From Escherichia coli (lineage in GTDB: Bacteria > Pseudomonadota > Gammaproteobacteria > Enterobacterales > Enterobacteriaceae), in NCBI RefSeq assembly GCF_003334385.1, contig NZ_QOWN01000010.1: a stretch of DNA of 64,000 nucleotides; one strand, written 5' to 3'. Positions 19,572-43,824 of this stretch are shown piece after piece; the first letter of the stretch is position 1, and each line of letters starts with the position of its first letter. The notes below the pieces were generated by a model. That model was not told the origin of the DNA, made no database searches, and saw only the letters and a list, made by a program, of their open reading frames with translations. The translations under genes and the position numbers were made by a program.

Positions 19572-19946
<375 letters not shown>

Positions 19947-22750: not shown

Positions 22751-22782
22751 AAAGAAAAAGGGGTTAGCATTTAGCTAACCCC
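22751..22782 (-). terminator. Intrinsic terminator downstream of serT
   Basis: Stem ggggttagc / gctaacccc followed by a T-run on the minus strand. Confidence 0.8.
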
Positions 22783-22792
22783 TTATCTTATT

Positions 22793-23306: not shown

Positions 23307-24425
23307 ATGAATAACGAGGAAACATTTTACCAGGCCATGCGGCGTCAGGGCGTTACCCGGCGCAGCTTTCTCAAATATTGTAGTCTGGCTGCCACGTCGC
23401 TGGGATTAGGCGCGGGAATGGCACCAAAGATTGCCTGGGCGCTGGAGAACAAACCGCGCATTCCGGTGGTATGGATCCACGGTCTGGAATGCACCTGCTG
23501 TACCGAATCTTTTATCCGCTCCGCTCACCCACTGGCGAAGGACGTCATCCTTTCCCTGATTTCCCTCGATTACGACGATACTTTGATGGCTGCCGCCGGA
23601 ACCCAGGCGGAAGAAGTCTTTGAAGACATCATCACGCAATACAATGGCAAATATATCCTCGCAGTAGAAGGTAATCCGCCGCTGGGCGAGCAGGGGATGT
23701 TCTGTATCAGCAGCGGTCGACCGTTTATTGAGAAACTCAAACGTGCCGCTGCCGGAGCCAGCGCGATTATCGCCTGGGGAACCTGCGCGTCCTGGGGCTG
23801 CGTGCAGGCCGCGCGACCCAATCCGACGCAGGCAACGCCTATCGACAAAGTCATCACCGACAAACCCATTATCAAAGTACCTGGCTGCCCGCCGATCCCG
23901 GATGTGATGAGCGCCATCATTACTTACATGGTGACCTTTGATCGCTTGCCAGATGTCGACAGAATGGGCCGTCCGCTGATGTTCTATGGTCAGCGAATCC
24001 ACGATAAATGCTATCGCCGCGCCCACTTCGACGCCGGAGAGTTCGTCCAGAGTTGGGATGATGACGCTGCCCGCAAAGGTTACTGCCTGTACAAAATGGG
24101 CTGCAAAGGGCCTACCACCTATAACGCCTGTTCCTCCACACGCTGGAATGATGGCGTTTCTTTCCCAATCCAGTCTGGTCACGGCTGCCTGGGCTGTGCG
24201 GAAAATGGTTTCTGGGATCGCGGTTCGTTCTACAGCCGCGTGGTCGATATTCCGCAAATGGGTACTCATTCCACCGCCGATACCGTCGGTTTAACCGCGC
24301 TTGGCGTGGTGGCAGCGGCTGTTGGTGTGCACGCAGTCGCCAGCGCCGTTGACCAGCGCAGACGTCATAACCAGCAACCTACAGAAACCGAACATCAGCC
24401 AGGCAATGAGGATAAACAGGCATGA
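23307..24425 (+). CDS. hyaA: Hydrogenase-1 small subunit (Tat signal RRSFLK)
   Basis: ORF trimmed to [24 protein letters not shown] (372 aa); aggaggag RBS upstream. Confidence 0.95.
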
Positions 24426-26215: not shown

Positions 26216-26233
26216 CAGCGAAGGAGAATCATC

Positions 26234-26941
26234 ATGCAACAGAAAAGCGACAACGTTGTCAGCCACTATGTCTTTGAAGCGCCAGTGCGCATCTGGCACT
26301 GGTTGACGGTGTTATGCATGGCGGTGTTGATGGTCACCGGATACTTTATCGGCAAGCCGCTACCTTCCGTCAGCGGCGAGGCGACGTATCTGTTCTATAT
26401 GGGCTACATCAGGTTAATTCACTTCAGCGCCGGGATGGTTTTTACCGTGGTTTTGCTGATGCGGATCTACTGGGCTTTTGTTGGCAATCGATACTCCCGC
26501 GAGCTGTTTATCGTGCCGGTATGGCGTAAAAGCTGGTGGCAGGGCGTGTGGTATGAAATCCGCTGGTATCTGTTTCTGGCAAAACGTCCGAGTGCCGATA
26601 TAGGCCATAATCCCATCGCCCAGGCGGCGATGTTCGGCTATTTCCTGATGTCGGTCTTTATGATCATCACTGGTTTTGCGCTGTACAGCGAACACAGCCA
26701 GTACGCTATTTTTGCGCCGTTCCGTTATGTGGTGGAATTTTTCTACTGGACGGGTGGCAACTCAATGGACATTCACAGCTGGCATCGGCTGGGGATGTGG
26801 CTGATTGGCGCGTTTGTGATCGGTCATGTCTACATGGCGCTGCGTGAAGACATCATGTCCGACGACACGGTGATCTCCACCATGGTCAACGGCTACCGTA
26901 GCCACAAATTTGGCAAAATAAGTAACAAGGAGCGTTCATGA
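26234..26941 (+). CDS. hyaC: Hydrogenase-1 cytochrome b subunit
   Basis: 235-aa hydrophobic ORF; operon position. Confidence 0.95.
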
Positions 26942-27525
26942 GCGAGCAACGCGTGGTGGTCATGGGGCTGGGCAACCTGCTGTGGGCCGATGAAGGCTTC
27001 GGCGTGCGGGTGGCGGAACGGCTGTATGCCCATTACCACTGGCCCGAGTATGTGGAGATTGTCGATGGCGGTACTCAGGGACTGAACTTGCTGGGGTATG
27101 TCGAAAGCGCCAGCCATCTGTTGATTCTCGATGCCATTGACTACGGGCTGGAACCTGGAACGCTGCGAACCTATGCCGGAGAACGCATTCCGGCTTATCT
27201 CAGCGCGAAGAAAATGAGCCTGCATCAGAACAGTTTCTCCGAAGTGTTGGCGCTGGCGGATATCCGCGGACATCTGCCAGCACATATTGCCCTCGTCGGT
27301 CTGCAACCCGCAATGCTCGACGACTACGGCGGTAGCCTGAGCGAACTGGCACGGGAGCAACTGCCCGCTGCGGAACAGGCGGCGCTGGCGCAGCTTGCTG
27401 CGTGGGGAATTGTGCCGCAACCGGCTAATGAATCGCGCTGTCTCAATTATGACTGTCTGTCGATGGAAAATTACGAAGGCGTTCGCTTGCGCCAGTACCG
27501 GATGACACAGGAGGAGCAGGGATGA
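26938..27525 (+). CDS. hyaD: Hydrogenase-1 maturation endopeptidase
   Basis: 195-aa ORF; 4-nt overlap with hyaC. Confidence 0.95.
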
Positions 27526-27920
27526 GCAACGACACGCCATTTGATGCGTTGTGGCAACGAATGCTGGCGCGCGGCTGGACGCCAGTCAGTGAATCCCGTC
27601 TTGACGACTGGCTTACGCAAGCGCCAGACGGCGTGGTGTTATTAAGCAGTGACCCGAAACGCACGCCAGAGGTCAGCGATAATCCGGTAATGATTGGCGA
27701 ATTACTGCGCGAGTTTCCCGACTATACATGGCAGGTGGCGATTGCTGACCTTGAGCAGAGCGAAGCCATCGGCGATCGCTTTGGCGTCTTTCGCTTTCCT
27801 GCCACTTTAGTGTTTACCGGCGGAAACTATCGCGGCGTGCTGAATGGTATTCACCCGTGGGCGGAACTGATAAACCTGATGCGCGGGCTTGTCGAACCGC
27901 AGCAGGAGCGTGCCTCATGA
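27522..27920 (+). CDS. hyaE: Hydrogenase-1 operon chaperone HyaE
   Basis: 132-aa ORF; operon position. Confidence 0.93.
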
Positions 27921-28774
27921 GCGAAACTTTTTTCCATCTGCTGGGGCCAGGAACGCAACCGAACGATGACAGTTTCAGCATGAATCCACTGCCGATCACC
28001 TGTCAGGTGAATGATGAACCGAGTATGGCGGCCCTGGAGCAATGTGCTCACAGCCCGCAGGTGATTGCGCTGTTAAACGAGTTACAACATCAACTAAGCG
28101 AACGCCAACCGCCGTTGGGCGAGGTGCTGGCAGTCGATCTGTTAAATCTCAACGCCGACGATCGTCACTTTATCAATACGCTTCTCGGGGAAGGGGAAGT
28201 GTCAGTGCGCATTCAGCAGGCTGACGACAGTGAAAGTGAAATACAGGAGGCGATCTTCTGCGGATTATGGCGGGTGCGCAGACGTCGCGGCGAAAAGTTG
28301 CTGGAGGACAAACTGGAGGCTGGCTGCGCGCCGCTGGCGTTGTGGCAGGCGGCAACGCAAAATCTCTTGCCGACAGATTCGCTGTTACCGCCGCCCATTG
28401 ATGGCCTGATGAATGGCCTACCGTTGGCGCATGAGTTACTGGCACATGTACGTAACCCCGACGCGCAGCCGCACAGCATTAATCTGACGCAATTACCCAT
28501 CAGCGAGGCTGATCGGCTTTTTCTCTCACGTCTCTGTGGGCCGGGAAATATTCAGATTCGTACCATTGGCTATGGCGAGAGCTATATCAACGCCACGGGG
28601 TTACGCCATGTCTGGCATTTACGCTGTACGGACACCTTAAAAGGCCCGTTACTGGAAAGTTATGAAATCTGCCCAATACCGGAAGTGGTGCTGGCAGCGC
28701 CAGAAGATTTGGTCGACTCTGCGCAGCGGCTTAGCGAGGTATGTCAGTGGCTGGCGGAAGCTGCACCGACGTAA
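27917..28774 (+). CDS. hyaF: Hydrogenase-1 operon protein HyaF
   Basis: ORF trimmed to [12 protein letters not shown] (285 aa); 4-nt overlap with hyaE. Confidence 0.93.
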
Positions 28775-28907
28775 AAAGACGGTAAGTATCGCTTTCAGTC
28801 TTATGAATATCGCAATCGGCGAATACCTCTGGTCGTAGAGTTTCAGGATAAAGAGGGAGATCTACCATTATCGGGTTATTTTTCTCTCTTCGCCTACAGG
28901 AGTGCGC

Positions 28908-30452
28908 ATGTGGGATGTCATTGATTTATCGCGCTGGCAGTTTGCTCTGACCGCGCTGTATCACTTTTTATTTGTACCCCTTACCCTGGGGCTGATTTTT
29001 TTGCTGGCTATTATGGAAACCATTTACGTGGTCACCGGCAAAACAATCTACCGCGATATGACGCGCTTCTGGGGTAAGCTCTTCGGTATCAATTTTGCTC
29101 TTGGCGTGGCTACCGGCCTGACCATGGAGTTTCAGTTTGGTACTAACTGGTCATTCTATTCCAACTATGTGGGCGATATTTTTGGCGCACCGCTGGCGAT
29201 GGAAGCATTAATGGCCTTCTTCCTCGAATCCACCTTTGTCGGGCTGTTCTTCTTCGGCTGGCAACGGCTGAATAAATACCAGCACCTGCTGGTGACGTGG
29301 CTGGTGGCGTTCGGTTCAAATCTCTCTGCGTTGTGGATATTGAATGCCAACGGTTGGATGCAATACCCGACCGGTGCGCATTTTGATATCGACACCCTGC
29401 GTATGGAGATGACCAGCTTCAGCGAGCTGGTCTTTAATCCGGTCAGCCAGGTGAAATTTGTGCACACCGTAATGGCGGGCTACGTGACCGGGGCCATGTT
29501 TATTATGGCGATCAGCGCCTGGTATTTACTGCGCGGACGGGAGCGCGATGTCGCATTACGCTCGTTTGCCATCGGTTCCGTCTTCGGTACTCTGGCGATT
29601 ATCGGTACCCTGCAACTCGGAGACAGTTCTGCGTATGAAGTCGCGCAAGTACAACCGGTAAAACTGGCGGCGATGGAAGGGGAGTGGCAAACGGAACCTG
29701 CACCTGCACCGTTCCATGTGGTTGCCTGGCCGGAACAGGATCAAGAGCGTAACGCCTTTGCCCTCAAAATTCCCGCGCTGCTAGGGATCCTCGCCACTCA
29801 CTCATTAGATAAACCCGTGCCGGGTCTGAAGAATTTGATGGCTGAAACCTACCCACGCTTGCAACGCGGACGTATGGCCTGGCTGTTAATGCAGGAAATA
29901 TCGCAAGGCAATCGTGAGCCGCATGTGTTGCAGGCATTCCGGGGACTGGAAGGTGACCTGGGCTACGGCATGTTGCTCTCCCGCTATGCGCCGGATATGA
30001 ATCATGTCACAGCCGCACAGTACCAGGCGGCGATGCGTGGCGCGATACCTCAGGTTGCGCCGGTATTCTGGAGTTTCCGCATCATGGTGGGCTGTGGTTC
30101 CCTGCTGCTACTGGTGATGCTGATTGCGCTTGTCCAGACGCTGCGTGGCAAAATCGACCAGCATCGCTGGGTGCTGAAAATGGCGCTCTGGAGTTTGCCG
30201 TTGCCGTGGATTGCGATTGAAGCCGGGTGGTTTATGACCGAGTTTGGTCGTCAGCCGTGGGCGATACAGGACATCTTACCGACATACTCCGCGCACTCCG
30301 CTTTAACCACAGGACAACTGGCTTTCTCACTGATCATGATCGTAGGGCTTTACACCCTGTTCTTAATCGCCGAAGTCTACCTGATGCAGAAATATGCCCG
30401 TCTGGGGCCGAGCGCGATGCAGAGTGAACAACCGACGCAGCAACAGGGGTAA
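28908..30452 (+). CDS. appC: Cytochrome bd-II oxidase subunit I
   Basis: ORF trimmed to [12 protein letters not shown] (514 aa); GRQPW Q-loop motif. Confidence 0.95.
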
Positions 30453-30463
30453 AGGAGAAAATC

Positions 30464-31600
30464 ATGTTTGATTATGAAACATTGCGCTTCATCTGGTGGC
30501 TGCTGATTGGCGTGATCCTGGTGGTCTTTATGATCTCCGACGGATTTGACATGGGGATCGGCTGTCTGCTGCCGCTGGTGGCGCGTAATGATGATGAACG
30601 CCGGATAGTGATAAACAGCGTTGGTGCACACTGGGAAGGCAACCAGGTCTGGTTGATCCTCGCTGGTGGGGCATTATTTGCCGCCTGGCCCAGAGTGTAT
30701 GCAGCGGCGTTTTCCGGCTTTTATGTGGCGATGATCCTGGTGCTGTGCTCACTGTTCTTCCGCCCGCTGGCCTTTGATTATCGCGGAAAAATCGCCGATG
30801 CACGCTGGCGTAAAATGTGGGACGCCGGTCTGGTCATCGGCAGTCTGGTGCCGCCGGTAGTCTTCGGTATCGCCTTCGGCAACTTGTTGCTCGGCGTGCC
30901 GTTTGCCTTCACACCGCAATTACGCGTGGAGTATCTCGGCAGCTTCTGGCAACTGCTGACGCCATTCCCTTTATTGTGCGGATTGCTCAGCCTTGGGATG
31001 GTGATTTTGCAAGGTGGCGTCTGGTTACAACTGAAAACTGTTGGTGTGATTCATCTGCGTTCACAGCTGGCGACCAAACGCGCTGCACTGTTGGTGATGC
31101 TGTGCTTTTTGCTGGCGGGTTACTGGCTGTGGGTCGGTATTGATGGCTTTGTACTGCTCGCCCAGGATGCTAACGGTCCTTCCAATCCGTTAATGAAACT
31201 GGTGGCAGTGCTACCTGGTGCCTGGATGAATAATTTTGTCGAGTCGCCCGTTTTGTGGATCTTCCCGCTGCTGGGATTCTTCTGCCCATTGCTGACGGTG
31301 ATGGCGATTTATCGTGGTCGCCCGGGTTGGGGATTTTTGATGGCATCATTGATGCAATTTGGCGTGATTTTCACGGCAGGCATCACGCTGTTCCCCTTTG
31401 TCATGCCGTCAAGCGTGAGTCCGATCTCCAGCCTGACGTTGTGGGACAGTACTTCCAGTCAGCTGACGCTGAGCATTATGTTGGTAATCGTGCTGATATT
31501 TTTGCCCATTGTGTTGCTCTACACTCTCTGGAGCTACTACAAAATGTGGGGGCGCATGACAACAGAAACTCTCCGCCGTAACGAAAACGAGTTGTACTAA
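30464..31600 (+). CDS. appB: Cytochrome bd-II oxidase subunit II
   Basis: 378-aa hydrophobic ORF. Confidence 0.95.
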
Positions 31601-31612
31601 GGAGCAGAAACA

Positions 31613-31705
31613 ATGTGGTATTTACTTTGGTTCGTCGGCATTTTGTTGATGTGTTCGCTCTCCACCCTTGTGTTGGTATGGCTGGACCCGCGTCTGAAAA
31701 GTTAA
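31613..31705 (+). CDS. appX: Cytochrome bd-II small subunit AppX (30 aa)
   Basis: Translation MWYLLWFVGILLMCSLSTLVLVWLDPRLKS after RBS aaggag; below ORF-track cutoff. Confidence 0.88.
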   Translation: MWYLLWFVGILLMCSLSTLVLVWLDPRLKS

Positions 31706-31784
31706 CGAACGTAGGCCTGATGCGGCGCATTAGCATCGCATCAGGCAATCAATAATGTCAGATATGAAAAGCGGAAACATATCG

Positions 31785-33083
31785 ATGAAAGCGATCTTAA
31801 TCCCATTTTTATCTCTTCTGATTCCGTTAACCCCGCAATCTGCATTCGCTCAGAGTGAGCCGGAGCTGAAGCTGGAAAGTGTGGTGATTGTCAGTCGTCA
31901 TGGTGTGCGTGCTCCAACCAAGGCCACGCAACTGATGCAGGATGTCACCCCAGACGCATGGCCAACCTGGCCGGTAAAACTGGGTTGGCTGACACCGCGC
32001 GGTGGTGAGCTAATCGCCTATCTCGGACATTACCAACGCCAGCGTCTGGTAGCCGACGGATTGCTGGCGAAAAAGGGCTGCCCGCAGTCTGGTCAGGTCG
32101 CGATTATTGCTGATGTCGACGAGCGTACCCGTAAAACAGGCGAAGCCTTCGCCGCCGGGCTGGCACCTGACTGTGCAATAACCGTACATACCCAGGCAGA
32201 TACGTCCAGTCCCGATCCGTTATTTAATCCTCTAAAAACTGGCGTTTGCCAACTGGATAACGCGAACGTGACTGACGCGATCCTCAGCAGGGCAGGAGGG
32301 TCAATTGCTGACTTTACCGGGCATCGGCAAACGGCGTTTCGCGAACTGGAACGGGTGCTTAATTTTCCGCAATCAAACTTGTGCCTTAAACGTGAGAAAC
32401 AGGACGAAAGCTGTTCATTAACGCAGGCATTACCATCGGAACTCAAGGTGAGCGCCGACAATGTCTCATTAACCGGTGCGGTAAGCCTCGCATCAATGCT
32501 GACGGAGATATTTCTCCTGCAACAAGCACAGGGAATGCCGGAGCCGGGGTGGGGAAGGATCACCGATTCACACCAGTGGAACACCTTGCTAAGTTTGCAT
32601 AACGCGCAATTTTATTTGCTACAACGCACGCCAGAGGTTGCCCGCAGCCGCGCCACCCCGTTATTAGATTTGATCAAGACAGCGTTGACGCCCCATCCAC
32701 CGCAAAAACAGGCGTATGGTGTGACATTACCCACTTCAGTGCTGTTTATCGCCGGACACGATACTAATCTGGCAAATCTCGGCGGCGCACTGGAGCTCAA
32801 CTGGACGCTTCCCGGTCAGCCGGATAACACGCCGCCAGGTGGTGAACTGGTGTTTGAACGCTGGCGTCGGCTAAGCGATAACAGCCAGTGGATTCAGGTT
32901 TCGCTGGTCTTCCAGACTTTACAGCAGATGCGTGATAAAACGCCGCTGTCATTAAATACGCCGCCCGGAGAGGTGAAACTGACCCTGGCAGGATGTGAAG
33001 AGCGAAATGCGCAGGGCATGTGTTCGTTGGCAGGTTTTACGCAAATCGTGAATGAAGCACGCATACCGGCGTGCAGTTTGTAA
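31785..33083 (+). CDS. appA: Periplasmic acid phosphatase/phytase (histidine acid phosphatase)
   Basis: ORF trimmed to MKAILIPFLSLLIP (432 aa); RHGVRAP active-site motif. Confidence 0.95.
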   Translation: MKAILIPFLSLLIPLTPQSAFAQSEPELKLESVVIVSRHGVRAPTKATQLMQDVTPDAWPTWPVKLGWLTPRGGELIAYLGHYQRQRLVADGLLAKKGCPQSGQVAIIADVDERTRKTGEAFAAGLAPDCAITVHTQADTSSPDPLFNPLKTGVCQLDNANVTDAILSRAGGSIADFTGHRQTAFRELERVLNFPQSNLCLKREKQDESCSLTQALPSELKVSADNVSLTGAVSLASMLTEIFLLQQAQGMPEPGWGRITDSHQWNTLLSLHNAQFYLLQRTPEVARSRATPLLDLIKTALTPHPPQKQAYGVTLPTSVLFIAGHDTNLANLGGALELNWTLPGQPDNTPPGGELVFERWRRLSDNSQWIQVSLVFQTLQQMRDKTPLSLNTPPGEVKLTLAGCEERNAQGMCSLAGFTQIVNEARIPACSL

Positions 33084-33085
33084 TG

Positions 33086-33118
33086 CATAAAAAAGAGCAT
33101 TCAGTTACCTGAATGCTC
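33086..33118. terminator. Hairpin between convergent appA and etk
   Basis: Stem agagcattcag / ctgaatgctct with loop ttac; A-run on the + strand gives a U-run for the minus-strand transcript. Confidence 0.6.
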
Positions 33119-33152
33119 TGAGGCTGATGACAAACGAAGAACTGTCTAATGC

Positions 33153-33187
33153 GTAGACCGGAAAAGGCGTTCACGCCGCATCCGGCC
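33153..33187. repeat. REP element
   Basis: gtagaccggaaaaggcgttcacgccgcatccggcca, the canonical REP palindrome. Confidence 0.7.
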
Positions 33188-33197
33188 ACTTTCAGTT

Positions 33198-35378
33198 TTA
33201 CTCTTTCTCGGAGTAACTATAACCGTAATAGTTATAGCCGTAACTGTAAGCGGTGCTGGCGCGTTTAATCACACCATTGAGGATAGCGCCTTTAATATTG
33301 ACGCCTGCCTGTTCCAGACGCTGCATTGACAAACTCACCTCTTTGGCGGTGTTCAAGCCAAAACGCGCAACCAGCAGGCTGGTGCCAACAGAACGCCCCA
33401 CGACCGCGGCATCACTCACCGCCAGCATCGGCGGCGTATCGACAATCACCAGATCGTAATGGTCGTTCGCCCATTCCAGTAATTGACGCATCCGATCGCG
33501 CATCAGCAGTTCAGACGGGTTAGGTGGCACCTGACCGCGAGTAATCACATCAAAGCCTCCTTTGCCAAAATGCTGGATCACTTTGTTGAGCTCATCTTTA
33601 CCTGCCAGATATTCCGACAAGCCATGTTCATTACTCACGGTAAACAGGTTATGCGAATAACCACGGCGTAAGTCGGCATCAATAAATAACACTTTTTGAT
33701 CGGACTGGGCGATCACCGCTGCCAGAGTTGAACTGACAAACGTTTTACCACTGTCTGGCGTCGCACCGGTGATCATTAGAATGTTATTCTCCGTCTCCAT
33801 CATAGCGAAATGCAGACTGGTTCGTAGCGCACGTACGGCTTCCACAGCAGAATCCGCCGGGTTATCCACCGCCAGGAAGGGGATATTTTTAGTACGATGG
33901 CGCTGCTGATTAGAAAATAAATTTTTCTTACGCAGACGGGTGCGTTTATCCAGCCACTCGGACATTGGGATAGTGGCATAAACGCTGATGCCGTGCTCTT
34001 CCAGTTGTTCCGGGGCTTCTACACCACGACGCAACATCGCACGCGCCAGCACGGCACCCACAGAAATAAACAGGCCAAGAATAAAACCAAGCACCACGTT
34101 CAACGCTTTTTTCGGTTTCACTGGCTGCGGCTGAGTGACTGCCGGGTCGATAATCCGCACGTTACCAATGGCACTGGATTTCGAAATACTCAACTCCTGC
34201 TGGCGGTTAAGTAATTGCAGATATACCGCACGGCCCGCTTCTACGTCACGACTTAAACGCAACACTTCCTGTTGGGTGGAAGGCATTGCCGATACCCGCT
34301 TATTCAGGCGTTTGCGTTCTTGCTCCAGCGTCTGGCGTTTTTCCAGCAGCGCACGATAAGTTGGGTGATCTTTCTTATACAGCTGGGAGATCTCTGCCTC
34401 GCGGAAGGTCAGCTCATTGAGTTGATTATCAACGTTCACAATCTGCTCAAGAACGGCTTTGGCTTCCAGGTTAAGGTCAACCGAATCGCGCTGCTGGCGA
34501 TAAACGTTGAGTTTTTCTTCCGCTTGGTCCAGCTCGCTGCGCACTTCAGGTAACTGGCGCTGTAAGAATTCAAGGCTTTGTGAATCCTGCGCCGCCTGGC
34601 GAGCGATATTCTGTTGCAAATAGTTGTTAGCGATGCTGTTCAGAATACGAGTAATCAACTGGGGATCATCACCAGTCATGGTAAGTTCCAGCATCCCGCT
34701 TTCTTTACTGCGTTCGCTAACGGTAAAGGTTTCCTGCAATGCGTTAATCGCTTCCAGTTCGGTACGCTGGCTCAGGACAAACTGTGTTCCTGGTTTGGCC
34801 TTAATGTCCGCGATAGTCAGCGCAACGCCATCTTTTTCCAGACGCTGGCCGACCATACCATTGACGGTGAACTCTTCACCTTCCAGTGTATAGTGGCCGT
34901 TTTCCCCAACCGTGAGTGTCAGTTGCTGATCCTGACCATTCAGTTGTGGAATATGCATCCAGCTGATCGCCAGCTCACCTGGTTTTTCTTTGGTTAATCT
35001 CGCCCAGCCGCGACCCACAATCGGAAAATACTTCTGCTCAACTATGTCGCGCAGATTCAGTTCAGCAATGGTTTTACCGAGAATCATGCGCGATTGCAGC
35101 AGTTGGATCTCCGGTGCAGACTCGGGCGATGAGTTAGGGATCATATCGCTCAGGCCGCTGAGAATGGCGTTGCCCTGTTTTTGCTCAACCTGGACCAGAG
35201 TATCTGCCTGATAAATTGGTGTGCTTAACAGCGAGTAAGCGACAGCGATCAGCGTGAATAACGCGGTCACGCTGATAATAAACTTACGGTGATCCCATAA
35301 CTCGCCGACCAGACGAAGCAGATCGATCTCATTTTCCTGAGTGCTGCCTGGTGGCGTATTCATATTTTTAGTTGTCAT
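33198..35378 (-). CDS. etk: Tyrosine autokinase Etk (Wzc paralogue)
   Basis: 726-aa ORF; Walker A GATPDSGKT and C-terminal tyrosine cluster YSYGYNYYGYSYSE. Confidence 0.95.
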   Translation of the reverse strand: MTTKNMNTPPGSTQENEIDLLRLVGELWDHRKFIISVTALFTLIAVAYSLLSTPIYQADTLVQVEQKQGNAILSGLSDMIPNSSPESAPEIQLLQSRMILGKTIAELNLRDIVEQKYFPIVGRGWARLTKEKPGELAISWMHIPQLNGQDQQLTLTVGENGHYTLEGEEFTVNGMVGQRLEKDGVALTIADIKAKPGTQFVLSQRTELEAINALQETFTVSERSKESGMLELTMTGDDPQLITRILNSIANNYLQQNIARQAAQDSQSLEFLQRQLPEVRSELDQAEEKLNVYRQQRDSVDLNLEAKAVLEQIVNVDNQLNELTFREAEISQLYKKDHPTYRALLEKRQTLEQERKRLNKRVSAMPSTQQEVLRLSRDVEAGRAVYLQLLNRQQELSISKSSAIGNVRIIDPAVTQPQPVKPKKALNVVLGFILGLFISVGAVLARAMLRRGVEAPEQLEEHGISVYATIPMSEWLDKRTRLRKKNLFSNQQRHRTKNIPFLAVDNPADSAVEAVRALRTSLHFAMMETENNILMITGATPDSGKTFVSSTLAAVIAQSDQKVLFIDADLRRGYSHNLFTVSNEHGLSEYLAGKDELNKVIQHFGKGGFDVITRGQVPPNPSELLMRDRMRQLLEWANDHYDLVIVDTPPMLAVSDAAVVGRSVGTSLLVARFGLNTAKEVSLSMQRLEQAGVNIKGAILNGVIKRASTAYSYGYNYYGYSYSEKE

Positions 35379-35397
35379 CGTATTTTATAAACTCAAA

Positions 35398-35844
35398 TTA
35401 CCGGCTGAGGCGCTTCGCCCATTCCTGACTGGCGCGCTCCAACATACCGTAGACATGTTCAAATGCGTCCTGACTTTTACGATAGGGATCCGGGATCTCT
35501 TTCTGTTCCAGCCATTGCCCAAACAGCATTGTCTTCCCGCGGACCTCGGGAGCAATTGCGGTAACCTGAGCAATATGTTCCGACTCCATTGCCAGAATCA
35601 GATCGTAATTTCGTGCCATCTCAGCAGTGAGCTTACGTCCGGCATGTCCTTCAAGAGATACGCCATGATTAGCGGCAACATCTGCCGCTGTCGCATCTGC
35701 AGGGTGTTTTACCAGACCATGAACACCTGCCGATTTGACTTTTACGCCCGGCAGACGTTTACGCAGCAAGCGCTCGCCAATGGGCGAACGGCAAATGTTG
35801 CCGGTACAAACCACCAGGATTGAGTTAAATTTTAGTTGGGCCAT
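35398..35844 (-). CDS. etp: Low-molecular-weight phosphotyrosine phosphatase Etp
   Basis: ORF trimmed to [21 protein letters not shown] (148 aa); CTGNICRS P-loop. Confidence 0.93.
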
Positions 35845-36971
35845 GTTTGAATCCACCGTGAAGTCTCTGTCAGGTCATGCACCCCGGAAATCGTCGGTAC
35901 CAGCAGAGAAATCACACGGTTCCAACGAGCCAGCGGCGCGGTAGTGACATAAACAATGTCGTAAGGTTCAAGCTGGAATTCCGTTCCGAGTATCATTGCC
36001 GATGCGTCCTTCGCATTCAGCTGATAAATATTGGCGATTTTGCCATTCTGCTTGTTTTGCGTTGCACGAATAACAAAAATCCCCGTCGCATCAGCGACAT
36101 CCTGATTCATACCCTCAGCGTTACCCAGCGCTTCCGCCAGGGTCATACCGCTGCGGTCCATTTTCAGCGTGCTCTGTTTACCCACTTCACCCATCACGAA
36201 GACTTTCAGATCATCGTTGCGCGGAATAAATAAAATATCGCCCGGGTGCAGCAGTTTGTTCTGGCGCAAGTCGCCACGCTGCATCAGCGCATAGAGGTTC
36301 ACTTTGGTCTTTACGCCATTCTGGGTGAGCACCACGTTGCGCCAGTCTGCATCTGCGGTCAGACCGCCCGCGGCGTTAATCGCATCCATGATGGTCAGAG
36401 GAATATTGGTAATCGGCTGCTGACCCGATTTGCTGACTTCGCCGGTGACGTACGCTTTTTGCGATCGGAACGCCGCGACGCTGACATCGACTTGCGGGCT
36501 TTCAATGACTGAATCGAGACGCGCTGTAATCTCGTTGCGTACCTGGGTAAGTGTTTTCCCGGCCACTTTCAGGCGACCAATATAGGGGTAGAAAATCGCA
36601 CCATCGGCGTTAACCCAGTTGCCGGTATCACTGGCGCTACGGTATTGCCCTGCGGGGGTGGTTAGTTCCGGGTGATCCCAGACCGTAACCATCAACACAT
36701 CACCAATCCCGATACGATATTCATAGTTTGCGATTTGCTGCTCCAGCTCCGGGTTAGCCTGCGACATAATCGGTTTGGCGCGCAACTGATCAATCAATCC
36801 TGGCGTGACGGGATAGATATTGACCATTTTGTCCAGGTCATACTGATTGTCAGGTAGTTCAATGACATCCTTGTTACTGGTCGATAAATTCTGACCAGGA
36901 ACAAGGGTACATGCTGTCAAAGACAGAACAGCCAATGTCAGTACCGAAAACTTAAAAATGTTCTTTTTCAT
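35832..36971 (-). CDS. gfcE: Wza-like outer membrane polysaccharide export lipoprotein GfcE
   Basis: ORF trimmed to [21 protein letters not shown] (379 aa). Confidence 0.93.
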
Positions 36972-37016
36972 TGGTTTATATTTATCAGTCAATGTAATGT
37001 TATGAATTACGTCAGG

Positions 37017-39113
37017 TTATTGTCCAACCGGTACTTCTCGCTCTGCCGTCATTGGATAGAGCTGGTATTTGCGTGACAGCATTTGTCCACCATCACGCGT
37101 CAATGGTGTCCACGAAACCACCGCGCGGTTGCGGTTAGGTCCAATGGTCATCAAGTCGAATGGAATCGAGATATAAAAACCTTTACTAAAGCCGCCTTCG
37201 CCGTAGTCATCTTTAGATACGTTACTGATTGCCGCCCATACCCCTACCGCCACGCCGCTGTCAAAGCGTTTGGCGACGTCGATCGTTGCGCCTTTATCTT
37301 TTGCCAGATATTGCCCAACGCTAAGTTTCATCAGTACGCCATTGAGCGTCGGCGGGTTCCAGTAAGCCGTCACGAAACCTGTTGGCGTGGAATAATCGGT
37401 GAAACGCATCATGTTGTCCCAGTCACGTTGCTTCACGTAGTTAACGTCCACACCCAGCGCCCAGCAGGCATCTAGCGGGCGATAAAGCAGCTCGGAACCG
37501 ACACCGGCGTACATCGTTTCCAGATAACCGCCATACACCTGGCCATAGAAACCATTGCCTAAGTCAGCAAAATAGTTCGCCTGCAAGTTGTTGAGATAAA
37601 CGTCATTGCGAACGTAGTCACGGATATGCGTGCGCACGCGGGGCAGGGTAGAGTCCGCGGGCAACAGCGAAGACTTAAACTTGTCGTAGTTGTTGTAAAT
37701 ATTGGTGAAAATACCGCCATCAAGCAGCAGGTGGTCGGTAAACCAGTAGCGGGCACTGGACATCAGCCCCAGCTGGAACATATAGAAATCTTCCGGGCCG
37801 CCCAGCGACTGTGAAAGTGTTGGGTTGAAAGAGTAGCTAAAGCGATCTTCACGAATACGGTAGCCCCGACCAAAGGCAGAAAGATCTTCAGCTTCAACAC
37901 GTTGTTGTTGCAGTGGCTCTGATTGACCAGGCGCTGTACCTGCCAGCTGTTTGCGCAGGCTGGCTACGTCGGTTTCGGTAGTCACCATCGCCATATGCTC
38001 GCGCTTTTGCGTCACGCTAATCTTCTCAACGCCTTGCGGCAGGTTATTCACCAGAATCCGGTTGGCACGATCGACCGCTTCACGAGAGTCACGGTATTTG
38101 TATTGCTGACCAGACATATACAGTGTCTTATCGCGTAGCTGAATTTCTGGCGCGTCAAAGCCCGCGTTATACTTCAGGGCGGTAAGTTGGTTTGCTACCG
38201 TGGTGTACTGCAATCCTTCAGATTCAGGCGCAGGTTGATATGCCGGTTTTGGCGTATCGCGCAGGGCAGGGCGCAGATCGTTGAAATTGGTCCGTAACGT
38301 GAAGCCAAACATCAACGTGTTACCGCGTTCATAACTCAGGTTGAGATCTGCCCAGCTGGCTGCGCGATAAACTGCGCCGACGTTGAAATGGCTTGCCTGA
38401 GGCAGTTTGCCAGCGAAATCATTCTGGTAATTGTTTCCATCGTATTCGAGTTTCAGACGCAGGGGATTCCACGGCGTTTGATACTCAATGCCGCCAAAGA
38501 TGGAAGCCGGGCCACGAAAGATATCGCTAAAGCTGATATCGCCCGCATCGTGAGACTCTGCGCGATGACAATATTTATCGCTCACCCGGCAAAACGGGTT
38601 GGTAATATTGCCCGCATTACCGGCGTAGCCCCATGCCATCCCGAGGGTGAAATCAAATGGCCCCGCTTGCTTGCTGGCCACCAGATACTCACCGTCAAAC
38701 AGACCCGTACCAGCAATATCACGTTTACCAAACGCCACTTGCGGTAGCCAGTAACCTTCTTCCCACAGGCGAAGTTTAAAATCGAATGATTTGTCTTTGT
38801 ATGACTGATCGCCGCTGAAATCTTCCCACTGGCTATATTTGCGTGTGCGCACATCCGTATAACGAATGGTGCCTTCCAGCCATGGGAACAGCGCCACGGA
38901 GGTGGAGTAGAACCGGTATTGATCGTTATCCCGGTAGTTGACGCTGAATTCACCTTCCGGTGCGATGCGCGCATTTGGCATCTGCAACAATCCTGTGCCG
39001 CCAAAGTCTGATTGCGACGAACCCAGCGGATCCGGGTAGGTTAATACTTCAGCATGACAGGCACTGGAGACGGCAATGGCCAGGCAGCTTAAAAGATAAG
39101 AATTCTTCTTCAT
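37017..39113 (-). CDS. gfcD: Outer membrane beta-barrel lipoprotein GfcD
   Basis: 698-aa ORF; operon position. Confidence 0.93.
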
Positions 39114-39859
39114 CAGTCAGGAACACGTTGCGTTAAAACAGACACAATCTGGTCATTTAAATCAGCATATTTTTCGGGCAGTACATGCGCAGAAAAGCCC
39201 AACCAAAGCTGGCTGCCAGGCGGTGGTTCCACATGTCTTTTATTCCACAGGGCAACAGGGGCGACGACAGTCTCACCCTCAGGCGTAATCACCATAACGT
39301 TATTCTTGTCCGCGCCTGCAAGGCGGGGGTGATCTTGCAGATAATCGGTAACGCTACGGCCTGCCTGCCAGGGCAATTGCCCGGCCCCAGAAACCGCACC
39401 CAGCAGAGTAATAGTCACCGGACGCTGTACGGTATAGAGCGTATAGTCCCCGACCAACGGGGGATTGCTGTTCTCATCCACTCGTACAAAATCAGGGTCC
39501 AGTTTGACCGGTAAGCGACCAGTGATATTGAGATTGAGTAACTGCTGGCGCACGGATTTAATCGTTGCCGCCACATCGTCGTCAGCTTCTGCTTCCCAGG
39601 AAGCAAGCTGTGCCATGACATGTTGGTAGTCTTTAAGCGCTTTAGCTTTCGCCGCAGAGTCGGTCAGCAAGGCACCAGGCCACCAGAGGCGATCGCGCAG
39701 TTGCGGTTGTGTCACCAACTGGACAACATTTTCCACGGGGCCAACGGAAAGTGTCTGTTGTTCGCCAGGCAGATAAATAGTCACCGTTCCTTGCGCAAAG
39801 GCATGGGGTGTCATTACGTAAAGTACGCTGGCAATGAAATACGACTGTAATTTATTCAT
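39113..39859 (-). CDS. gfcC: Periplasmic protein GfcC
   Basis: 248-aa ORF with signal peptide. Confidence 0.93.
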
Positions 39860-40500
39860 GGTGCGGGTTTAAGAAACGTCATTTCTACGGGAATAACCCC
39901 TGCGCCTAACATTTGCCGACTTTGACGAACCTGGCCAGTAGCCGAATCGACCCAGAATGTGTTTTGCCACTGTTTTTCTGGCCGCGTGGAAGTCACCTCT
40001 TCCTGCCAGACATTACACAGCACATTGCGACCCGCAATATTCAGCGTCTCTAATCCAGCAAAGGAAAAAGTAGAACTCAGGGTCGCAGAGCGAAAATGGT
40101 TGTCTTCACTCCAGAGAATATCGCGCGTCCAGCGGCTGCCATCTTTTATTGCCAGCGCGTTACGCAGAGGGTCCTGCCCGGAATTTGTCACTTCCAGCAG
40201 ATTATTATTAAGTTTGACGGTTTTTAAAAGACGTCCATTGTGGGTAACCAGCATGGCGTTATCCTGGGATAACCATTTGCTTTGTTCTTGTTCTATATAT
40301 CCCAGTACCACAAAGATTCGTTGCCCTTCATTAAGGCGTAAATACATAGTGGAATAAGGCAACGCCTGGATCTGCTGATCCGCTACGGTGATATCCTGAT
40401 TATCGAAAAGGCTGGCGCGAAATGTATCGACCATACTTTGCTGGCTGTGCGTACATCCCGCAAGAAATAGTGCGAAAATCGATAAAATAAGAGGGCGCAC
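39856..40500 (-). CDS. gfcB: Lipoprotein GfcB
   Basis: 214-aa ORF with lipobox LAGCTHS. Confidence 0.93.
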   Translation of the reverse strand: MRPLILSIFALFLAGCTHSQQSMVDTFRASLFDNQDITVADQQIQALPYSTMYLRLNEGQRIFVVLGYIEQEQSKWLSQDNAMLVTHNGRLLKTVKLNNNLLEVTNSGQDPLRNALAIKDGSRWTRDILWSEDNHFRSATLSSTFSFAGLETLNIAGRNVLCNVWQEEVTSTRPEKQWQNTFWVDSATGQVRQSRQMLGAGVIPVEMTFLKPAP

Positions 40501-40606
40501 CTTTAATCCTTGAAAGGTTAATTAAAAAAATGCAAATCTCTAAAGCCCGGTACGAATATCGCAACCGGGTATCATTTAACTTTAATTTCGACGCGTTAAA
40601 GCAGTA

Positions 40607-40912
40607 TTAGCGTGTAGTGGACGTGGTGGTTGAGGTGTTATGAGAACCGCCATCGCCACTGTCATTTGCTGCAACAACTGCCAACGTCGCCACACCAACA
40701 GCCGTTGCCACACCGACAACTGTCGCCGTGCCGACAGCGCCAGCAGCCACGCCACCAGTGGTAGTAGCAGTCGTGGTTGCGCCGGTAGTGGTCGTTGTGG
40801 TGCCAGTAGTACCCGTCGTTGCCTCGGTCCCGTTTGTTGCTTCAGGGGCAGCAAACGCAGCTGGCGTCGTCAACATGAAGGCCATAAGGATTGCAGAAAG
40901 CTTGTGTTTCAT
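40607..40912 (-). CDS. gfcA: Thr-rich inner membrane protein GfcA
   Basis: ORF trimmed to MKHKLSAILMAFMLTTPAAFA (101 aa); long Thr/Gly/Ala/Val low-complexity tract. Confidence 0.88.
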   Translation of the reverse strand: MKHKLSAILMAFMLTTPAAFAAPEATNGTEATTGTTGTTTTTTGATTTATTTGGVAAGAVGTATVVGVATAVGVATLAVVAANDSGDGGSHNTSTTTSTTR

Positions 40913-41353
40913 AACTTTTCCTTTATTCATCGCATGGACAATACGTACGCTTGAGATCAGGATTGTCTACTTTGAGTATAACATCCTTGTGAAATCTCCC
41001 TTTCCTCATACCGCTTGCACTATATACTGCGGGTAGGAAAGGCGCGCAGAGGGAAATATAAGATTGTTAACTATCCCCCTCTGGAAATACGACTTGTGAG
41101 CATAAGATAAATCTTAGCAAAATACAAATTAAAGATAAGGAAATTGTTACGAAAGCTATTAATTATTGTTGGTAATATAGTTTCAAGTGGTACTATAACT
41201 GGCTGTTAAATGGCATTTATAACTATTAGGTGCAGAGATATTCGCTTAAATGGATTAGTTTCTTTGTGGAAAAGTAACTGATGTTATAATGTATGATGTT
41301 GACTATTGCACTATTCCAATAAAACCAGTCAGCTTTAAACAAGCAGCGTCATA

Positions 41354-41566
41354 TTAAGAGAGATAAACATTTGCCGCTGTTGGTCCTCGCAGGCCATTTA
41401 CGCGGCAAAATTCCACACGTAATCCTGGTATAAGCACTTCTGCGTCGCGGGGAGTGAATGCGGAAATATGGACCTGAACTTCTTTACGACCGTCGGAGGG
41501 GATAATGAATCCTTTGCCGCTTTTGCGATCAAAGGTTTTGACAATTCCTGTCATTTTACGGGACAA
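41354..41566 (-). CDS. cspH: Cold-shock-domain protein CspH
   Basis: 70-aa [26 protein letters not shown]... Confidence 0.93.
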
Positions 41567-41851
41567 ACAAATTCCTTACTGAAAATACTGCGCTGCACTA
41601 TACGGGGTTAATAAAATAAAGCCAGCGATATTTAAGACCGCCGGACGGCTAAAATAAAATTTGCTTAATCTCAATTATCATGCGTTAATAGCTGCGTCGG
41701 TTTGAAAGACAGACAGCATACAAAGTAGTTTACTAAAGCAGTTCTCATTATCAGGCATTATCCCCTTCTTTTGAGTCTCTCTCCTGAACACTAAGTAGTT
41801 TCTGTATTAAAGCCCTGTTTGCCGAAAGGCCCAAAATGAAGGAAGTAAAAT

Positions 41852-42064
41852 ATGTCTAATAAAATGACTGGTTTAGTAAAATGGTTTAACGCAGATAAAG
41901 GTTTTGGCTTTATCACTCCTGATGATGGCAGCAAAGACGTTTTCGTCCATTTCACCGCCATCCAGAGCAATGAATTCCGCACGCTGAACGAAAATCAGAA
42001 AGTTGAATTTTCTATTGAGCAGGGGCAACGTGGCCCCGCGGCAGCGAACGTTGTTACGCTCTAA
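41852..42064 (+). CDS. cspG: Cold shock protein CspG
   Basis: 70-aa [26 protein letters not shown]...; long AT-rich leader. Confidence 0.95.
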
Positions 42065-42263
42065 GGTTGCCATTATTACTCAACATCTCCATTTCCGCTG
42101 TCCATGTTGTCATGGTTCACAGTACCGCACATCGGCATTCGATGTGACGGAGCGAAACCCTTTGGGCGCTAAGTGTATTTTTTGTAAATCGACGATGATC
42201 ACCTTTGATAACGTCGCGCTGCAAATACGCACTGACCATGCGCCGCTGGATTTCACAAAATAA
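42051..42263 (+). CDS. ymcF: Small Cys-rich (zinc-ribbon-like) protein YmcF; start codon uncertain
   Basis: Frame of ORF 42003..42263 encodes ...[11 protein letters not shown]...CIFCKS...; no in-frame ATG before the Cys motifs, so the start must be non-canonical (TTG at 42051 proposed). Confidence 0.5.
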
Positions 42264-42468
42264 TATCAGGCTCCCTCGTGGAGCCTTTTTTATATCTGCC
42301 TTATTTTTCTTCAACGCTGTATGTATAGTAAGCGATAACCTGTTGATTATTGAATCTTTCGGGGAGATGGCTTATAACATTTCTTACCTGACCAGGGTAC
42401 CGGGAACCAACACCTTACTGGCGTGTTGCTGTCTTTTAAGACCAGAAGAGGTTAACAGTGAATATTGA
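42238..42468 (+). CDS. ymcE: Small protein YmcE (Sfa)
   Basis: ORF trimmed to [25 protein letters not shown] (76 aa). Confidence 0.85.
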   Translation: MRRWISQNNIRLPRGAFFISALFFFNAVCIVSDNLLIIESFGEMAYNISYLTRVPGTNTLLACCCLLRPEEVNSEY

Positions 42469-42631
42469 AGAGTTAAAAAAACAAGCCGAAACGGAAATCG
42501 CCGACTTTATCGCGCAAAAAATCGCCGAGCTGAACAAGAATACAGGGAAAGAAGTCTCTGAAATTCGCTTCACCGCACGAGAAAAAATGACCGGGCTTGA
42601 AAGTTATGATGTCAAAATCAAAATAATGTGA
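42458..42631 (+). CDS. gnsA: GnsA (57 aa)
   Basis: GTG start at 42458 gives MNIEELKKQAETEIADFIAQKIAELNKNTGKEVSEIRFTAREKMTGLESYDVKIKIM; start overlaps the ymcE stop. Confidence 0.85.
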   Translation: MNIEELKKQAETEIADFIAQKIAELNKNTGKEVSEIRFTAREKMTGLESYDVKIKIM

Positions 42632-42637
42632 TTTTGT

Positions 42638-42665
42638 GAACATCACCCCGTGCGAGGTGATGTTC
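42638..42665. terminator. Hairpin between convergent gnsA and yccM
   Basis: Stem gaacatcacc / ggtgatgttc; weak flanking U-tract. Confidence 0.45.
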
Positions 42666-42679
42666 CGCTTGTTGCTAAT

Positions 42680-43753
42680 TTAGTGACCAATCATTGGCGC
42701 TTGTGGAATTAAGCGTCGGTACAATTCCTCCGGCACCGGGCTTTGCCATACTCCCGCATACATTGCGTAACCAATCACCGCAAACATAATCCCCAGAACC
42801 AGTAGCGTCATTAACCAGCCAGACAACGCAAAGGCTTTTTTATTTGCCGCAGGTTTTTGCAGTGAAAAGGTCAATGTTGAGGCTACCGGACATGACTCTA
42901 CGCAAGTCATACAGCCGGTACATTCCACTGTTCGTACCTGAATTAATTTATCGACCGGGATCCGTGATGGGCAATTTTTTGCGCATTTGCCACAGTCGAT
43001 ACAACTTTCGGCATTGCGACGAATCTTAAACGGCGACAATAGCGAAACCACGCCCATCAGCGCGCCATATGGGCAAAGATAACGACACCAGGCATGGCGA
43101 ATAAACAGGCTGGCAATCAGCAAAACGGTCACGCTGATTAATGTCGCGGTCCCCATATGACGAAAGAAATCGAGCATTTTAACGTCCATCACCACGCTGT
43201 AGGGCGACAACATAAAATAGTGAATCGCCTGAGCGGGCATCAATAACGCGATATAGATAAAAAAACTCAACAGCAAATACTTCACGCCGCGCAGAGGAAT
43301 ATCCAGCCAGCGGGGAAGGACACATTGCCGACCAAACAGTTTGTTACCGAGATCGCCGATTAATTCAGAAAGCGTACCAACCGGGCATAACCATGAGCAA
43401 AAGGCCTTTTTGAGTAATAGACTGATGACGATAAAAGCGACCAATAACAGCATCGCGGCGGCGTGGACGGACGGTAACTGACCTGTTACAAGGCTATATT
43501 TCAGATTCATCAGCCCGGCAATCGGTAGCCAGCCTTCGATACCTCCCGGTCTGGCGACAAATGTCGTGCTACTTGCCGTTTCGTAATAGCGCACCCAATA
43601 CCAGAACGTGATGGCAATATAAATATTCATTGCCAACAGTAATAATTGCGTCGCTTTACGCCAGGTCGTGGCATTACGCCAGTCATTCCACGGTAATTTG
43701 CCGCCCGTCGTGCCTGGCCGCCGCTGCCAGCGGGTTCTTTTATTCTCTGCCAT
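42680..43753 (-). CDS. yccM: NapH-like membrane polyferredoxin YccM (two 4Fe-4S motifs)
   Basis: 357-aa ORF with CIDCGKCAKNCP and CTGCMTCVESCP plus CSWLCP / CRYLCP motifs and transmembrane segments. Confidence 0.92.
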   Translation of the reverse strand: MAENKRTRWQRRPGTTGGKLPWNDWRNATTWRKATQLLLLAMNIYIAITFWYWVRYYETASSTTFVARPGGIEGWLPIAGLMNLKYSLVTGQLPSVHAAAMLLLVAFIVISLLLKKAFCSWLCPVGTLSELIGDLGNKLFGRQCVLPRWLDIPLRGVKYLLLSFFIYIALLMPAQAIHYFMLSPYSVVMDVKMLDFFRHMGTATLISVTVLLIASLFIRHAWCRYLCPYGALMGVVSLLSPFKIRRNAESCIDCGKCAKNCPSRIPVDKLIQVRTVECTGCMTCVESCPVASTLTFSLQKPAANKKAFALSGWLMTLLVLGIMFAVIGYAMYAGVWQSPVPEELYRRLIPQAPMIGH

Positions 43754-43824
43754 GATTTTGCCAGTCCGTTAAGTTGTATACCAAATGCCACTATTCTAGT
43801 TGTTCTTAACTGGCTGATATTGAT

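What the first reader, a model, noticed from the sequence alone, without database searches (positions are those of the whole stretch)
40913..41353. gfc (group 4 capsule) operon has an uninterrupted upstream region with no IS1
The spacer between the gfcA start (40912) and cspH is 441 bp of AT-rich sequence with no IS1 terminal repeats or insA/insB coding capacity. My memory of the K-12 reference places an IS1 copy here that silences the seven-gene gfcABCDE-etp-etk operon. Here all seven genes are intact, so the operon could be expressible and the source is probably not MG1655.
Basis: partly seen in the sequence, partly recalled or inferred. Interest (0 to 1): 0.45.

Follow-up and report, generated by a model that had tools for sequence, protein, structure and literature searches.

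The report
Uninterrupted gfc capsule-operon promoter region
The stretch upstream of the E. coli group 4 capsule (gfc) operon lacks the IS1 element that interrupts it in K-12, but this is the common wild-type arrangement and the K-12 insertion was published in 2005, so the finding is correct and ordinary.

Summary
Window 40913..41353 is a 441-bp spacer with 35% GC, lying between the gfcA start codon and the cspH stop codon, both on the minus strand. It contains no IS1 ends and no insA/insB coding capacity.

The window is colinear with MG1655 1008833..1073609. It differs by 19 single-base changes and one structural change. MG1655 carries IS1D (768 bp) flanked by a duplicated GACAATACG. The window has one copy of that 9-mer (40937..40945), which is an exact empty site 25 bp upstream of the gfcA ATG.

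All seven Gfc/Etp/Etk proteins are identical to the K-12 proteins. Intact genes therefore do not distinguish the two strains; only the IS1 does.

Among 5,426 complete E. coli genomes:
- 3,616 carry this site.
- 3,180 of those have it uninterrupted.
- 414 have the K-12-type gfcA/IS1 junction. These include K-12 and B laboratory lines and some natural isolates.
- About 1,810 lack the operon altogether.

The source is a phylogroup-A-like natural relative of K-12, not MG1655. The literature already states that IS1 sits in the gfc (ymc) promoter of K-12 but not of pathogenic strains. Whether the operon is expressed or a capsule is made cannot be judged from the window, because the O-antigen locus lies elsewhere. 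Verdict: already known, low interest.

The parts
33198..35378 (-). etk, protein-tyrosine kinase and last gene of the operon (726 aa)
   Evidence: ORF list. Protein 100% identical to MG1655 b0981.
35398..35844 (-). etp, phosphotyrosine phosphatase (148 aa)
   Evidence: Identical to MG1655 b0982.
35832..36971 (-). gfcE, Wza-like export lipoprotein (379 aa)
   Evidence: Identical to MG1655 b0983.
37017..39113 (-). gfcD (698 aa)
   Evidence: Protein identical to MG1655 b0984. One synonymous SNP at 38361.
39113..39859 (-). gfcC (248 aa)
   Evidence: Identical to MG1655 b0985.
39856..40500 (-). gfcB, lipoprotein (214 aa, GTG start)
   Evidence: Identical to MG1655 b0986.
40607..40912 (-). gfcA, threonine-rich inner membrane protein and first gene of the operon (101 aa)
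   Evidence: Identical to MG1655 b0987. AAGGA Shine-Dalgarno sequence upstream of the ATG at 40912.
40913..41353 (-). Uninterrupted 441-bp AT-rich spacer, comprising the cspH 3' flank and the gfc regulatory region
   Evidence: 35% GC. No IS1 sequence. Colinear with MG1655 apart from IS1D and one SNP at 41308.
40937..40945 (.). Empty IS1 target site GACAATACG, present as a single copy. In K-12 and B it is duplicated on both sides of IS1D.
   Evidence: The two alignment blocks overlap by exactly these 9 bases. The same site is occupied in E. coli B and in natural isolates.
40975..40983 (-). Candidate extended -10 element TGtTATACT. This is inferred, not demonstrated. The predicted transcription start is near 40968.
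   Evidence: It is the only -10-like hexamer with a TG extension in the conserved proximal block. It is invariant in 6 lineages. The standard two-hexamer scan finds no promoter on this strand.
40913..41091 (-). Conserved proximal block of the spacer (179 bp)
   Evidence: 5.6% variable columns, against 24% in the distal 262 bp (17% without the strain C deletion), across 6 E. coli lineages. Only 5 differences from O157:H7, none in the first 100 bp upstream of the ATG.
41103..41116 (.). Palindrome TAAGATTTATCTTA that fits the core positions of an RcsAB-box-like motif. This is a lead only.
   Evidence: The pattern TAAGNNNNNTCNTA gave 3 hits in the window against 0.74 expected. Present in 5 of 6 lineages and removed by a 23-bp deletion in strain C.
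41354..41566 (-). cspH, the upstream neighbour on the same strand (70 aa, TTG start)
   Evidence: Identical to MG1655 b0989.

Best explanation
This is the native, never-interrupted regulatory region of the gfcABCDE-etp-etk (group 4 / O-antigen capsule export) operon, in a natural E. coli strain closely related to K-12.

Shown:
- The window carries the empty allele of a 9-bp IS1 target (GACAATACG, 40937..40945) that is occupied by IS1D in K-12 and B.
- The seven genes downstream are intact.
- The 179 bp nearest gfcA are strongly conserved across E. coli lineages.

Inferred:
- Transcription starts from a promoter inside that conserved block. The best candidate is an extended -10 element, TGtTATACT, at 40983..40975, with a start near 40968.
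- The transcript runs through a leader of about 55 nt into gfcA and on to etk.
- In K-12 the IS1 sits inside this leader, between the promoter and the ribosome-binding site. There it uncouples the operon from its promoter and imposes the transcriptional polarity for which IS1 insertions are classically known.
- In this strain that block is absent, so the operon can be transcribed from its own promoter.
- A capsule would form only if the strain also makes a Wzy-dependent O-antigen, which is encoded outside the window.
For: - Colinearity with MG1655 apart from IS1D plus its target-site duplication, and 19 SNPs.
- IS1D is annotated in MG1655 between gfcA and cspH.
- No IS1 DNA or coding capacity anywhere in the window.
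- All seven proteins are identical to those of K-12.
- The uninterrupted site is present in 3,180 of the 3,616 genomes that carry the locus. These include an O157:H7 strain (Z1768, L016), whose proximal 100 bp are identical to the window.
- The window allele at 41308 is shared by every non-K-12/B lineage where it could be scored, so MG1655 holds the derived state.
- All seven genes are required for the capsule in EPEC, and the S. sonnei operon with its own promoter complements a deletion (PMC4368438).
- The proximal block is about 3-fold more conserved than the distal part, and the candidate extended -10 is invariant.
Against: - The promoter position is not demonstrated. The standard -35/-10 scan finds nothing on the gfc strand in the spacer, and the candidate has a poor -35 (2 of 6).
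- No expression data exist for this strain.
- AT-rich DNA of this kind is often silenced by nucleoid proteins, so an intact promoter need not mean an active one.
- No convincing intrinsic terminator follows cspH, so some transcription might enter from upstream.
- etk is reported to be expressed in K-12 under some conditions despite the IS1 (PMC2516531), so the IS1 block is not absolute.
- The primary paper (Peleg et al. 2005) could not be read here. Its content is taken from papers that cite it.
Confidence: 0.9

Rival explanations
1. The operon is structurally intact here but still makes no capsule. It could be silenced, for instance by H-NS-type repression of the AT-rich leader or by lack of an activating signal. 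Alternatively the strain may lack a usable O-antigen. On this reading, absence of IS1 has no phenotypic consequence.
For: - The spacer is 35% GC in a 51% GC window.
- It has no canonical sigma-70 promoter.
- The mechanisms governing ymc operon expression are described as unknown in PMC2516531.
- The capsule needs the Wzy-dependent O-antigen units encoded elsewhere (PMC4368438), and that locus is not in the window.
Against: - The proximal 100 bp are identical to the O157:H7 sequence and the whole proximal block is conserved, which argues for a working control region.
- Pathogenic strains with the IS-free arrangement are reported to use the operon (PMC2516531, PMC4368438).
- This reading does not conflict with the structural conclusion. 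It only limits the word 'expressible'.
Confidence: 0.35
2. The window comes from a K-12 derivative in which IS1D was removed, either by precise excision or by engineering of an IS-free chassis strain.
For: - 99.97% identity to MG1655.
- A scar-free empty site with a single copy of the 9-bp target.
Against: - 19 SNPs in 64 kb, 8 of them nonsynonymous. From general knowledge, not measured here, this is far more than separates K-12 derivatives.
- At 41308 the window has the allele found in every non-K-12/B lineage where it could be scored, whereas K-12 and B share the derived base.
- The closest complete genomes over 25 kb are natural isolates with fewer mismatches than MG1655.
Confidence: 0.02
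3. Assembly artefact: an IS1 is really present in the source genome but was collapsed out of the assembly.
For: IS1 is a multi-copy repeat, and repeats of this kind are commonly mis-assembled (general knowledge, not tested here).
Against: - The junction is a perfect empty site, identical to that of thousands of independent complete genomes. Repeat problems in assembly normally break contigs rather than produce a clean single-copy target.
- There is no partial IS1 end at the site.
Confidence: 0.02

Closest known systems
gfcABCDE-etp-etk (formerly ymcDCBA-yccZ-etp-etk) group 4 capsule operon of EPEC O127:H6, EHEC O157:H7 and Shigella sonnei, with its native IS-free upstream region
   Same: - Same seven genes in the same order, between appA and cspH.
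- Uninterrupted spacer of the same length (441 bp in O157:H7 Z1768).
- The first 100 bp upstream of the ATG are identical, with 5 differences in the proximal 179 bp.
   Different: - The distal half of the spacer differs at 22 positions from O157:H7.
- The coding sequences are of the K-12 type rather than the EPEC or EHEC type.
- Capsule production has not been shown for this strain or its close relatives.
E. coli K-12 MG1655 gfc locus with IS1D (b0987 / IS1D / b0989)
   Same: - 99.97% identical flanking DNA.
- All seven proteins and CspH are identical.
- Same 9-bp target sequence.
   Different: - MG1655 has the 768-bp IS1D plus a second copy of GACAATACG, 25 to 33 bp upstream of the gfcA ATG. 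The window does not.
- One further SNP in the spacer at 41308 (G here, T in MG1655 and in E. coli B).
gfc-less arrangement of B2-type strains (for example O25:H4), where appA abuts cspH
   Same: Same flanking genes appA and cspH.
   Different: In those genomes the whole operon and the spacer are absent. This applies to about 1,810 of 5,426 genomes. The window has the full operon.

Membership tests
gfc / group 4 capsule operon (gfcABCDE-etp-etk) | Seven co-oriented genes gfcA, B, C, D, E, etp and etk, all open, located between appA and cspH | tested here: met
   ORFs at 33198..40912 on the minus strand. Each encodes a protein 100% identical to MG1655 b0981 to b0987.
gfc / group 4 capsule operon (gfcABCDE-etp-etk) | The operon is transcribed and is required for an O-antigen capsule | not testable with these tools
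   This needs expression and polysaccharide assays, and the O-antigen (rfb/wzy) locus lies outside the 64-kb window.
IS1 insertion allele of the gfc promoter (K-12 IS1D type) | A 768-bp IS1 with about 23-bp terminal inverted repeats and insA/insB | tested here: not met
   No IS1 DNA (best blastn hit 19 nt). No terminal repeat at up to 3 mismatches. No InsA/InsB similarity.
IS1 insertion allele of the gfc promoter (K-12 IS1D type) | 9-bp direct duplication of the target GACAATACG flanking the element | tested here: not met
   A single copy at 40937..40945. MG1655 has two copies, on either side of IS1D.
Escherichia coli K-12 MG1655 (identity of the source) | Sequence identical to NC_000913.3 over the region | tested here: not met
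   19 SNPs and absence of IS1D over 64 kb.
Sigma-70 promoter (extended -10 class) for gfcA | A TGn plus TATAAT-like hexamer at a suitable distance upstream of a mapped transcription start | tested here: inconclusive
   TGtTATACT at 40983..40975 is invariant in 6 lineages. No start-site data are available, and the two-hexamer scan is negative.
RcsAB-box-regulated polysaccharide promoters | A match to the RcsAB box consensus (TaAGaatatTCctA, recalled from memory) upstream of the promoter, with Rcs-dependent expression | tested here: inconclusive
   TAAGATTTATCTTA at 41103..41116 fits the core positions (3 hits in the window against 0.74 expected). It is dispensable in strain C, which has it deleted. 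No binding or expression data exist.

The most novel reading that the evidence does not exclude
The 9-bp site in the gfcA leader, and the roughly 500 bp around it, may be a recurrent IS1 target in natural E. coli populations, with silencing of the group 4 capsule operon repeatedly selected.

Observations consistent with this:
- K-12 and B share one IS1-bearing haplotype.
- Isolates labelled as human, bovine, porcine ETEC, poultry and wastewater carry an IS1 at the identical position.
- At least three other IS1 events lie close by, at 41040..41048, at 40586..40594, and one IS1-linked deletion of 40626..41110.

On this reading the window shows the 'on-capable' allele of a natural on/off polymorphism rather than simply a non-K-12 state.
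Probability: 0.3. Interest if true: 0.3.

Novelty: already known. Interest (0 to 1): 0.1.

Why it matters
It matters only modestly.

- **Provenance.** It marks the source as a wild-type-like relative of K-12 rather than the reference strain.
- **Capsule potential.** The capsule-export operon keeps its native control region. This bears on whether such a strain can make an O-antigen capsule, which has been linked to colonisation and to resistance against host defences in EPEC, EHEC and Shigella sonnei.

The K-12 IS1 insertion and its absence from other strains have been in the literature since 2005. The IS-free state is the species norm.

Tried and rejected
- **Hidden IS1 remnants.** I searched with blastn at word size 7, with the terminal repeat at up to 3 mismatches, and with tblastn using InsA and InsB. 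Nothing was found.
- **Canonical promoter or terminator in the spacer.** The consensus scan found none on the gfc strand.
- **RNA structure.** The predicted leader (40970..40900) and the cspH 3' flank fold no better than shuffled controls, with z-scores of +0.2 and +1.1.
- **Rfam.** Nothing was found in the spacer. The only match reaching its family's gathering score nearby is the cspA-type thermoregulator upstream of cspG, at 41696..42118.
- **Engineered or excised K-12 derivative.** Rejected on SNP count and allele sharing.
- **IS1 subtype as evidence of independent insertions.** I tried using IS1A versus IS1D type at the shared site. This is not conclusive, because the subtype at this site varies even among K-12 laboratory derivatives in the database.
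- **Exact source genome.** None of the 5,426 complete genomes matches perfectly over the 25 kb tested. By my estimate from the bit score, the best match (SCU-104) has about 2 mismatches.
- **Primary paper.** Peleg et al. 2005 (PMC1196049) is not held in the library. I relied on papers that cite it.
- **Cross-species footprinting.** I did not run the costly genome-contig scan, because the finding is ordinary.

Full report
**Observation**

The window region 40400..41800 was read directly and ORFs were listed. On the minus strand lie seven genes:
- etk, 33198..35378
- etp, 35398..35844
- gfcE, 35832..36971
- gfcD, 37017..39113
- gfcC, 39113..39859
- gfcB, 39856..40500
- gfcA, 40607..40912

Further upstream on the same strand lies cspH (41354..41566). 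The spacer 40913..41353 is exactly 441 bp, with 35.1% GC against 51.4% for the window.

**Comparison with K-12**

The MG1655 record (NC_000913.3) annotates IS1D at 1049778..1050545, between gfcA (b0987) and cspH (b0989), with insA and insB transcribed away from gfcA. I assembled MG1655 1005000..1078000 and aligned it to the window. This gave two blocks:
- Window 1..40945 aligns to MG1655 1008833..1049777.
- Window 40937..64000 aligns to MG1655 1050546..1073609.

The blocks overlap by the nine bases GACAATACG (40937..40945). That sequence occurs once in the window and on both sides of IS1D in MG1655. The window therefore holds the exact empty target site, 25 to 33 bp upstream of the gfcA ATG.

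No IS1 sequence exists anywhere in the window:
- The best blastn hit at word size 7 is 19 nt.
- The terminal inverted repeat has no match at up to 3 mismatches.
- InsA and InsB find nothing by tblastn.

Apart from IS1D, the window differs from MG1655 at 19 scattered single bases. Eight are nonsynonymous, seven are synonymous and four are intergenic. All seven operon proteins and CspH are identical to those of MG1655. Gene intactness is therefore shared with K-12 and is not what sets this sequence apart.

**How common the arrangement is**

Counts come from 5,426 complete E. coli genomes.
- 3,616 contain the 201 bp centred on the target site.
- 3,180 of these have it uninterrupted.
- 414 contain the exact K-12 junction of gfcA flank and IS1.
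- About 1,810 lack the site. In an O25:H4 example, appA runs directly into cspH and the operon is absent.

The IS-free state is thus the majority state. At the one spacer SNP (41308), the window has the base found in every other lineage where the position could be scored. MG1655 and E. coli B share the alternative base. This is consistent with the K-12 state being derived.

The best matches to window 28500..53400 are natural isolates and collection strains: SCU-104, FORC 064, NCTC9087 and ETEC H10407. None is identical. The source is therefore a natural close relative of K-12, not MG1655 and not an engineered derivative.

**Anatomy of the spacer**

I aligned the spacer from six E. coli lineages: the window, an O157:H7-type strain, strain C, a soil isolate, an avian isolate and a blood isolate.
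- The 179 bp nearest gfcA have 5.6% variable columns.
- The distal 262 bp have 24% variable columns, or 17% if the 23-bp deletion in strain C is set aside.
- Against O157:H7 strain Z1768 the spacer has 27 differences. Only 5 fall in the proximal block, and none in the first 100 bp upstream of the ATG.

The consensus scan finds no two-hexamer sigma-70 promoter on the gfc strand. A relaxed scan finds one extended -10 candidate within the conserved block, TGtTATACT at 40983..40975. It is invariant in all six lineages.

If that element is the promoter, transcription would start near 40968. The K-12 IS1 would then sit inside the leader, between the promoter and the ribosome-binding site. This part is inference. 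IS1 insertions are classically polar, which would explain loss of downstream expression.

Other checks gave little:
- The predicted leader and the cspH 3' flank show no structure beyond shuffled controls.
- Rfam finds nothing in the spacer.
- The palindrome TAAGATTTATCTTA (41103..41116) fits the core of an RcsAB-type box. The evidence is weak, and strain C lacks it.

**Literature**

[quoted passage not shown] 2005. It also notes that etk is nevertheless expressed in K-12 under some conditions.
- PMC4368438 summarises that all seven genes are required for the capsule in EPEC. It also reports that the S. sonnei operon with its own promoter restores the capsule.
- The primary 2005 paper is not held in the library.

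**Other IS1 events nearby**

- E. coli B (C3029) has an IS1 at the identical site, in the same orientation and with the same duplication. It differs from IS1D by one base.
- Isolates labelled as human, bovine, porcine ETEC, poultry and wastewater also carry an IS1 colinear at this site.
- PSJ-36 has a divergent IS1 at 41040..41048.
- Strain 98202 has an IS1 with a deletion of 40626..41110.
- B18271 has an IS1 between gfcB and gfcA.

The IS1 subtype at the shared site varies even among K-12 derivatives. Subtype therefore cannot separate independent insertions from inheritance.

**Verdict**

Expression and capsule formation cannot be read from this window. The IS-free state is the ordinary wild-type condition. 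The finding is already known and of low interest. Its main use is as a provenance marker showing that the source is not K-12 or B.

Noticed in passing
window 40937..40945 and 41308; L008 (E. coli B C3029), L001 (MG1655): E. coli B carries an IS1 at exactly the K-12 site, in the same orientation and with the same 9-bp duplication. It differs from IS1D by 1 nt. B also shares the linked derived T at the 41308-equivalent position, whereas every other lineage where the position could be scored has G. The two laboratory lineages therefore appear to share one IS1-bearing haplotype.
   Followed up: partly
window 40937..40945; L009 and hits H171..H209: Isolates labelled as human, bovine, porcine ETEC, poultry and wastewater carry an IS1 colinear at the same 9-bp site. 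The insertion is therefore not confined to laboratory K-12 and B. The IS1 subtype at the site varies even among K-12 derivatives, so independent insertion and inheritance cannot be told apart.
   Followed up: partly
window 41040..41048, 40586..40594 and 40626..41110 (equivalents in L004, L007, L006); L005: Other IS1 events cluster around gfcA. PSJ-36 has a divergent IS1 (94.5% to IS1D) about 130 bp upstream of the ATG. B18271 has an IS1 between gfcB and gfcA. Strain 98202 has an IS1 with loss of gfcA and the proximal promoter. 2014C-3011 has an IS1 upstream of cspH.
   Followed up: partly
L017 (O25:H4 CU568-3); window 33198..41353 equivalent: In about 1,810 of 5,426 genomes the site is absent. 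In the O25:H4 example examined, the whole gfc operon and the spacer are missing and the annotated appA end overlaps the cspH 3' end.
   Followed up: partly
window 41092..41114 (strain C, L012); around 40937 (ET82, L010): Small structural variants occur in the spacer. Strain C has a 23-bp deletion that removes the TAAGATTTATCTTA palindrome. Strain ET82 has about 34 extra bp, apparently a duplication, within the 201-bp stretch around the IS1 target site.
   Followed up: no
window 40923..41009 (-) and 40930 (-): A 28-codon upstream ORF (MRKGRFHKDVILKVDNPDLKRTYCPCDE) lies inside the conserved proximal block and ends 10 nt before the gfcA ATG. It has no obvious Shine-Dalgarno sequence, and the only variable site within it is synonymous. 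There is also an in-frame ATG six codons upstream of the annotated gfcA start.
   Followed up: no
window 41696..42118 (+) and 42221..42301 (+): Rfam finds a full-length cspA thermoregulator (159 bits, E 5e-43) covering the cspG leader and the start of cspG. It also finds a sub-threshold match to the Salmonella sRNA STnc220 (34 bits against a gathering score of 60) in the ymcE/gnsA region.
   Followed up: no
window 54689, 55199, 55451 (yccE); 22881 (next to serT): Three of the eight nonsynonymous differences from MG1655 fall in yccE (I88T, A258V, V342A). One intergenic difference lies one base outside the annotated 5' end of tRNA-Ser serT.
   Followed up: no
window 41290..41353 (-): No convincing intrinsic terminator follows cspH. 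The consensus scan is negative and the fold is no better than shuffled sequence. Read-through from cspH into the gfc regulatory region cannot be excluded.
   Followed up: no
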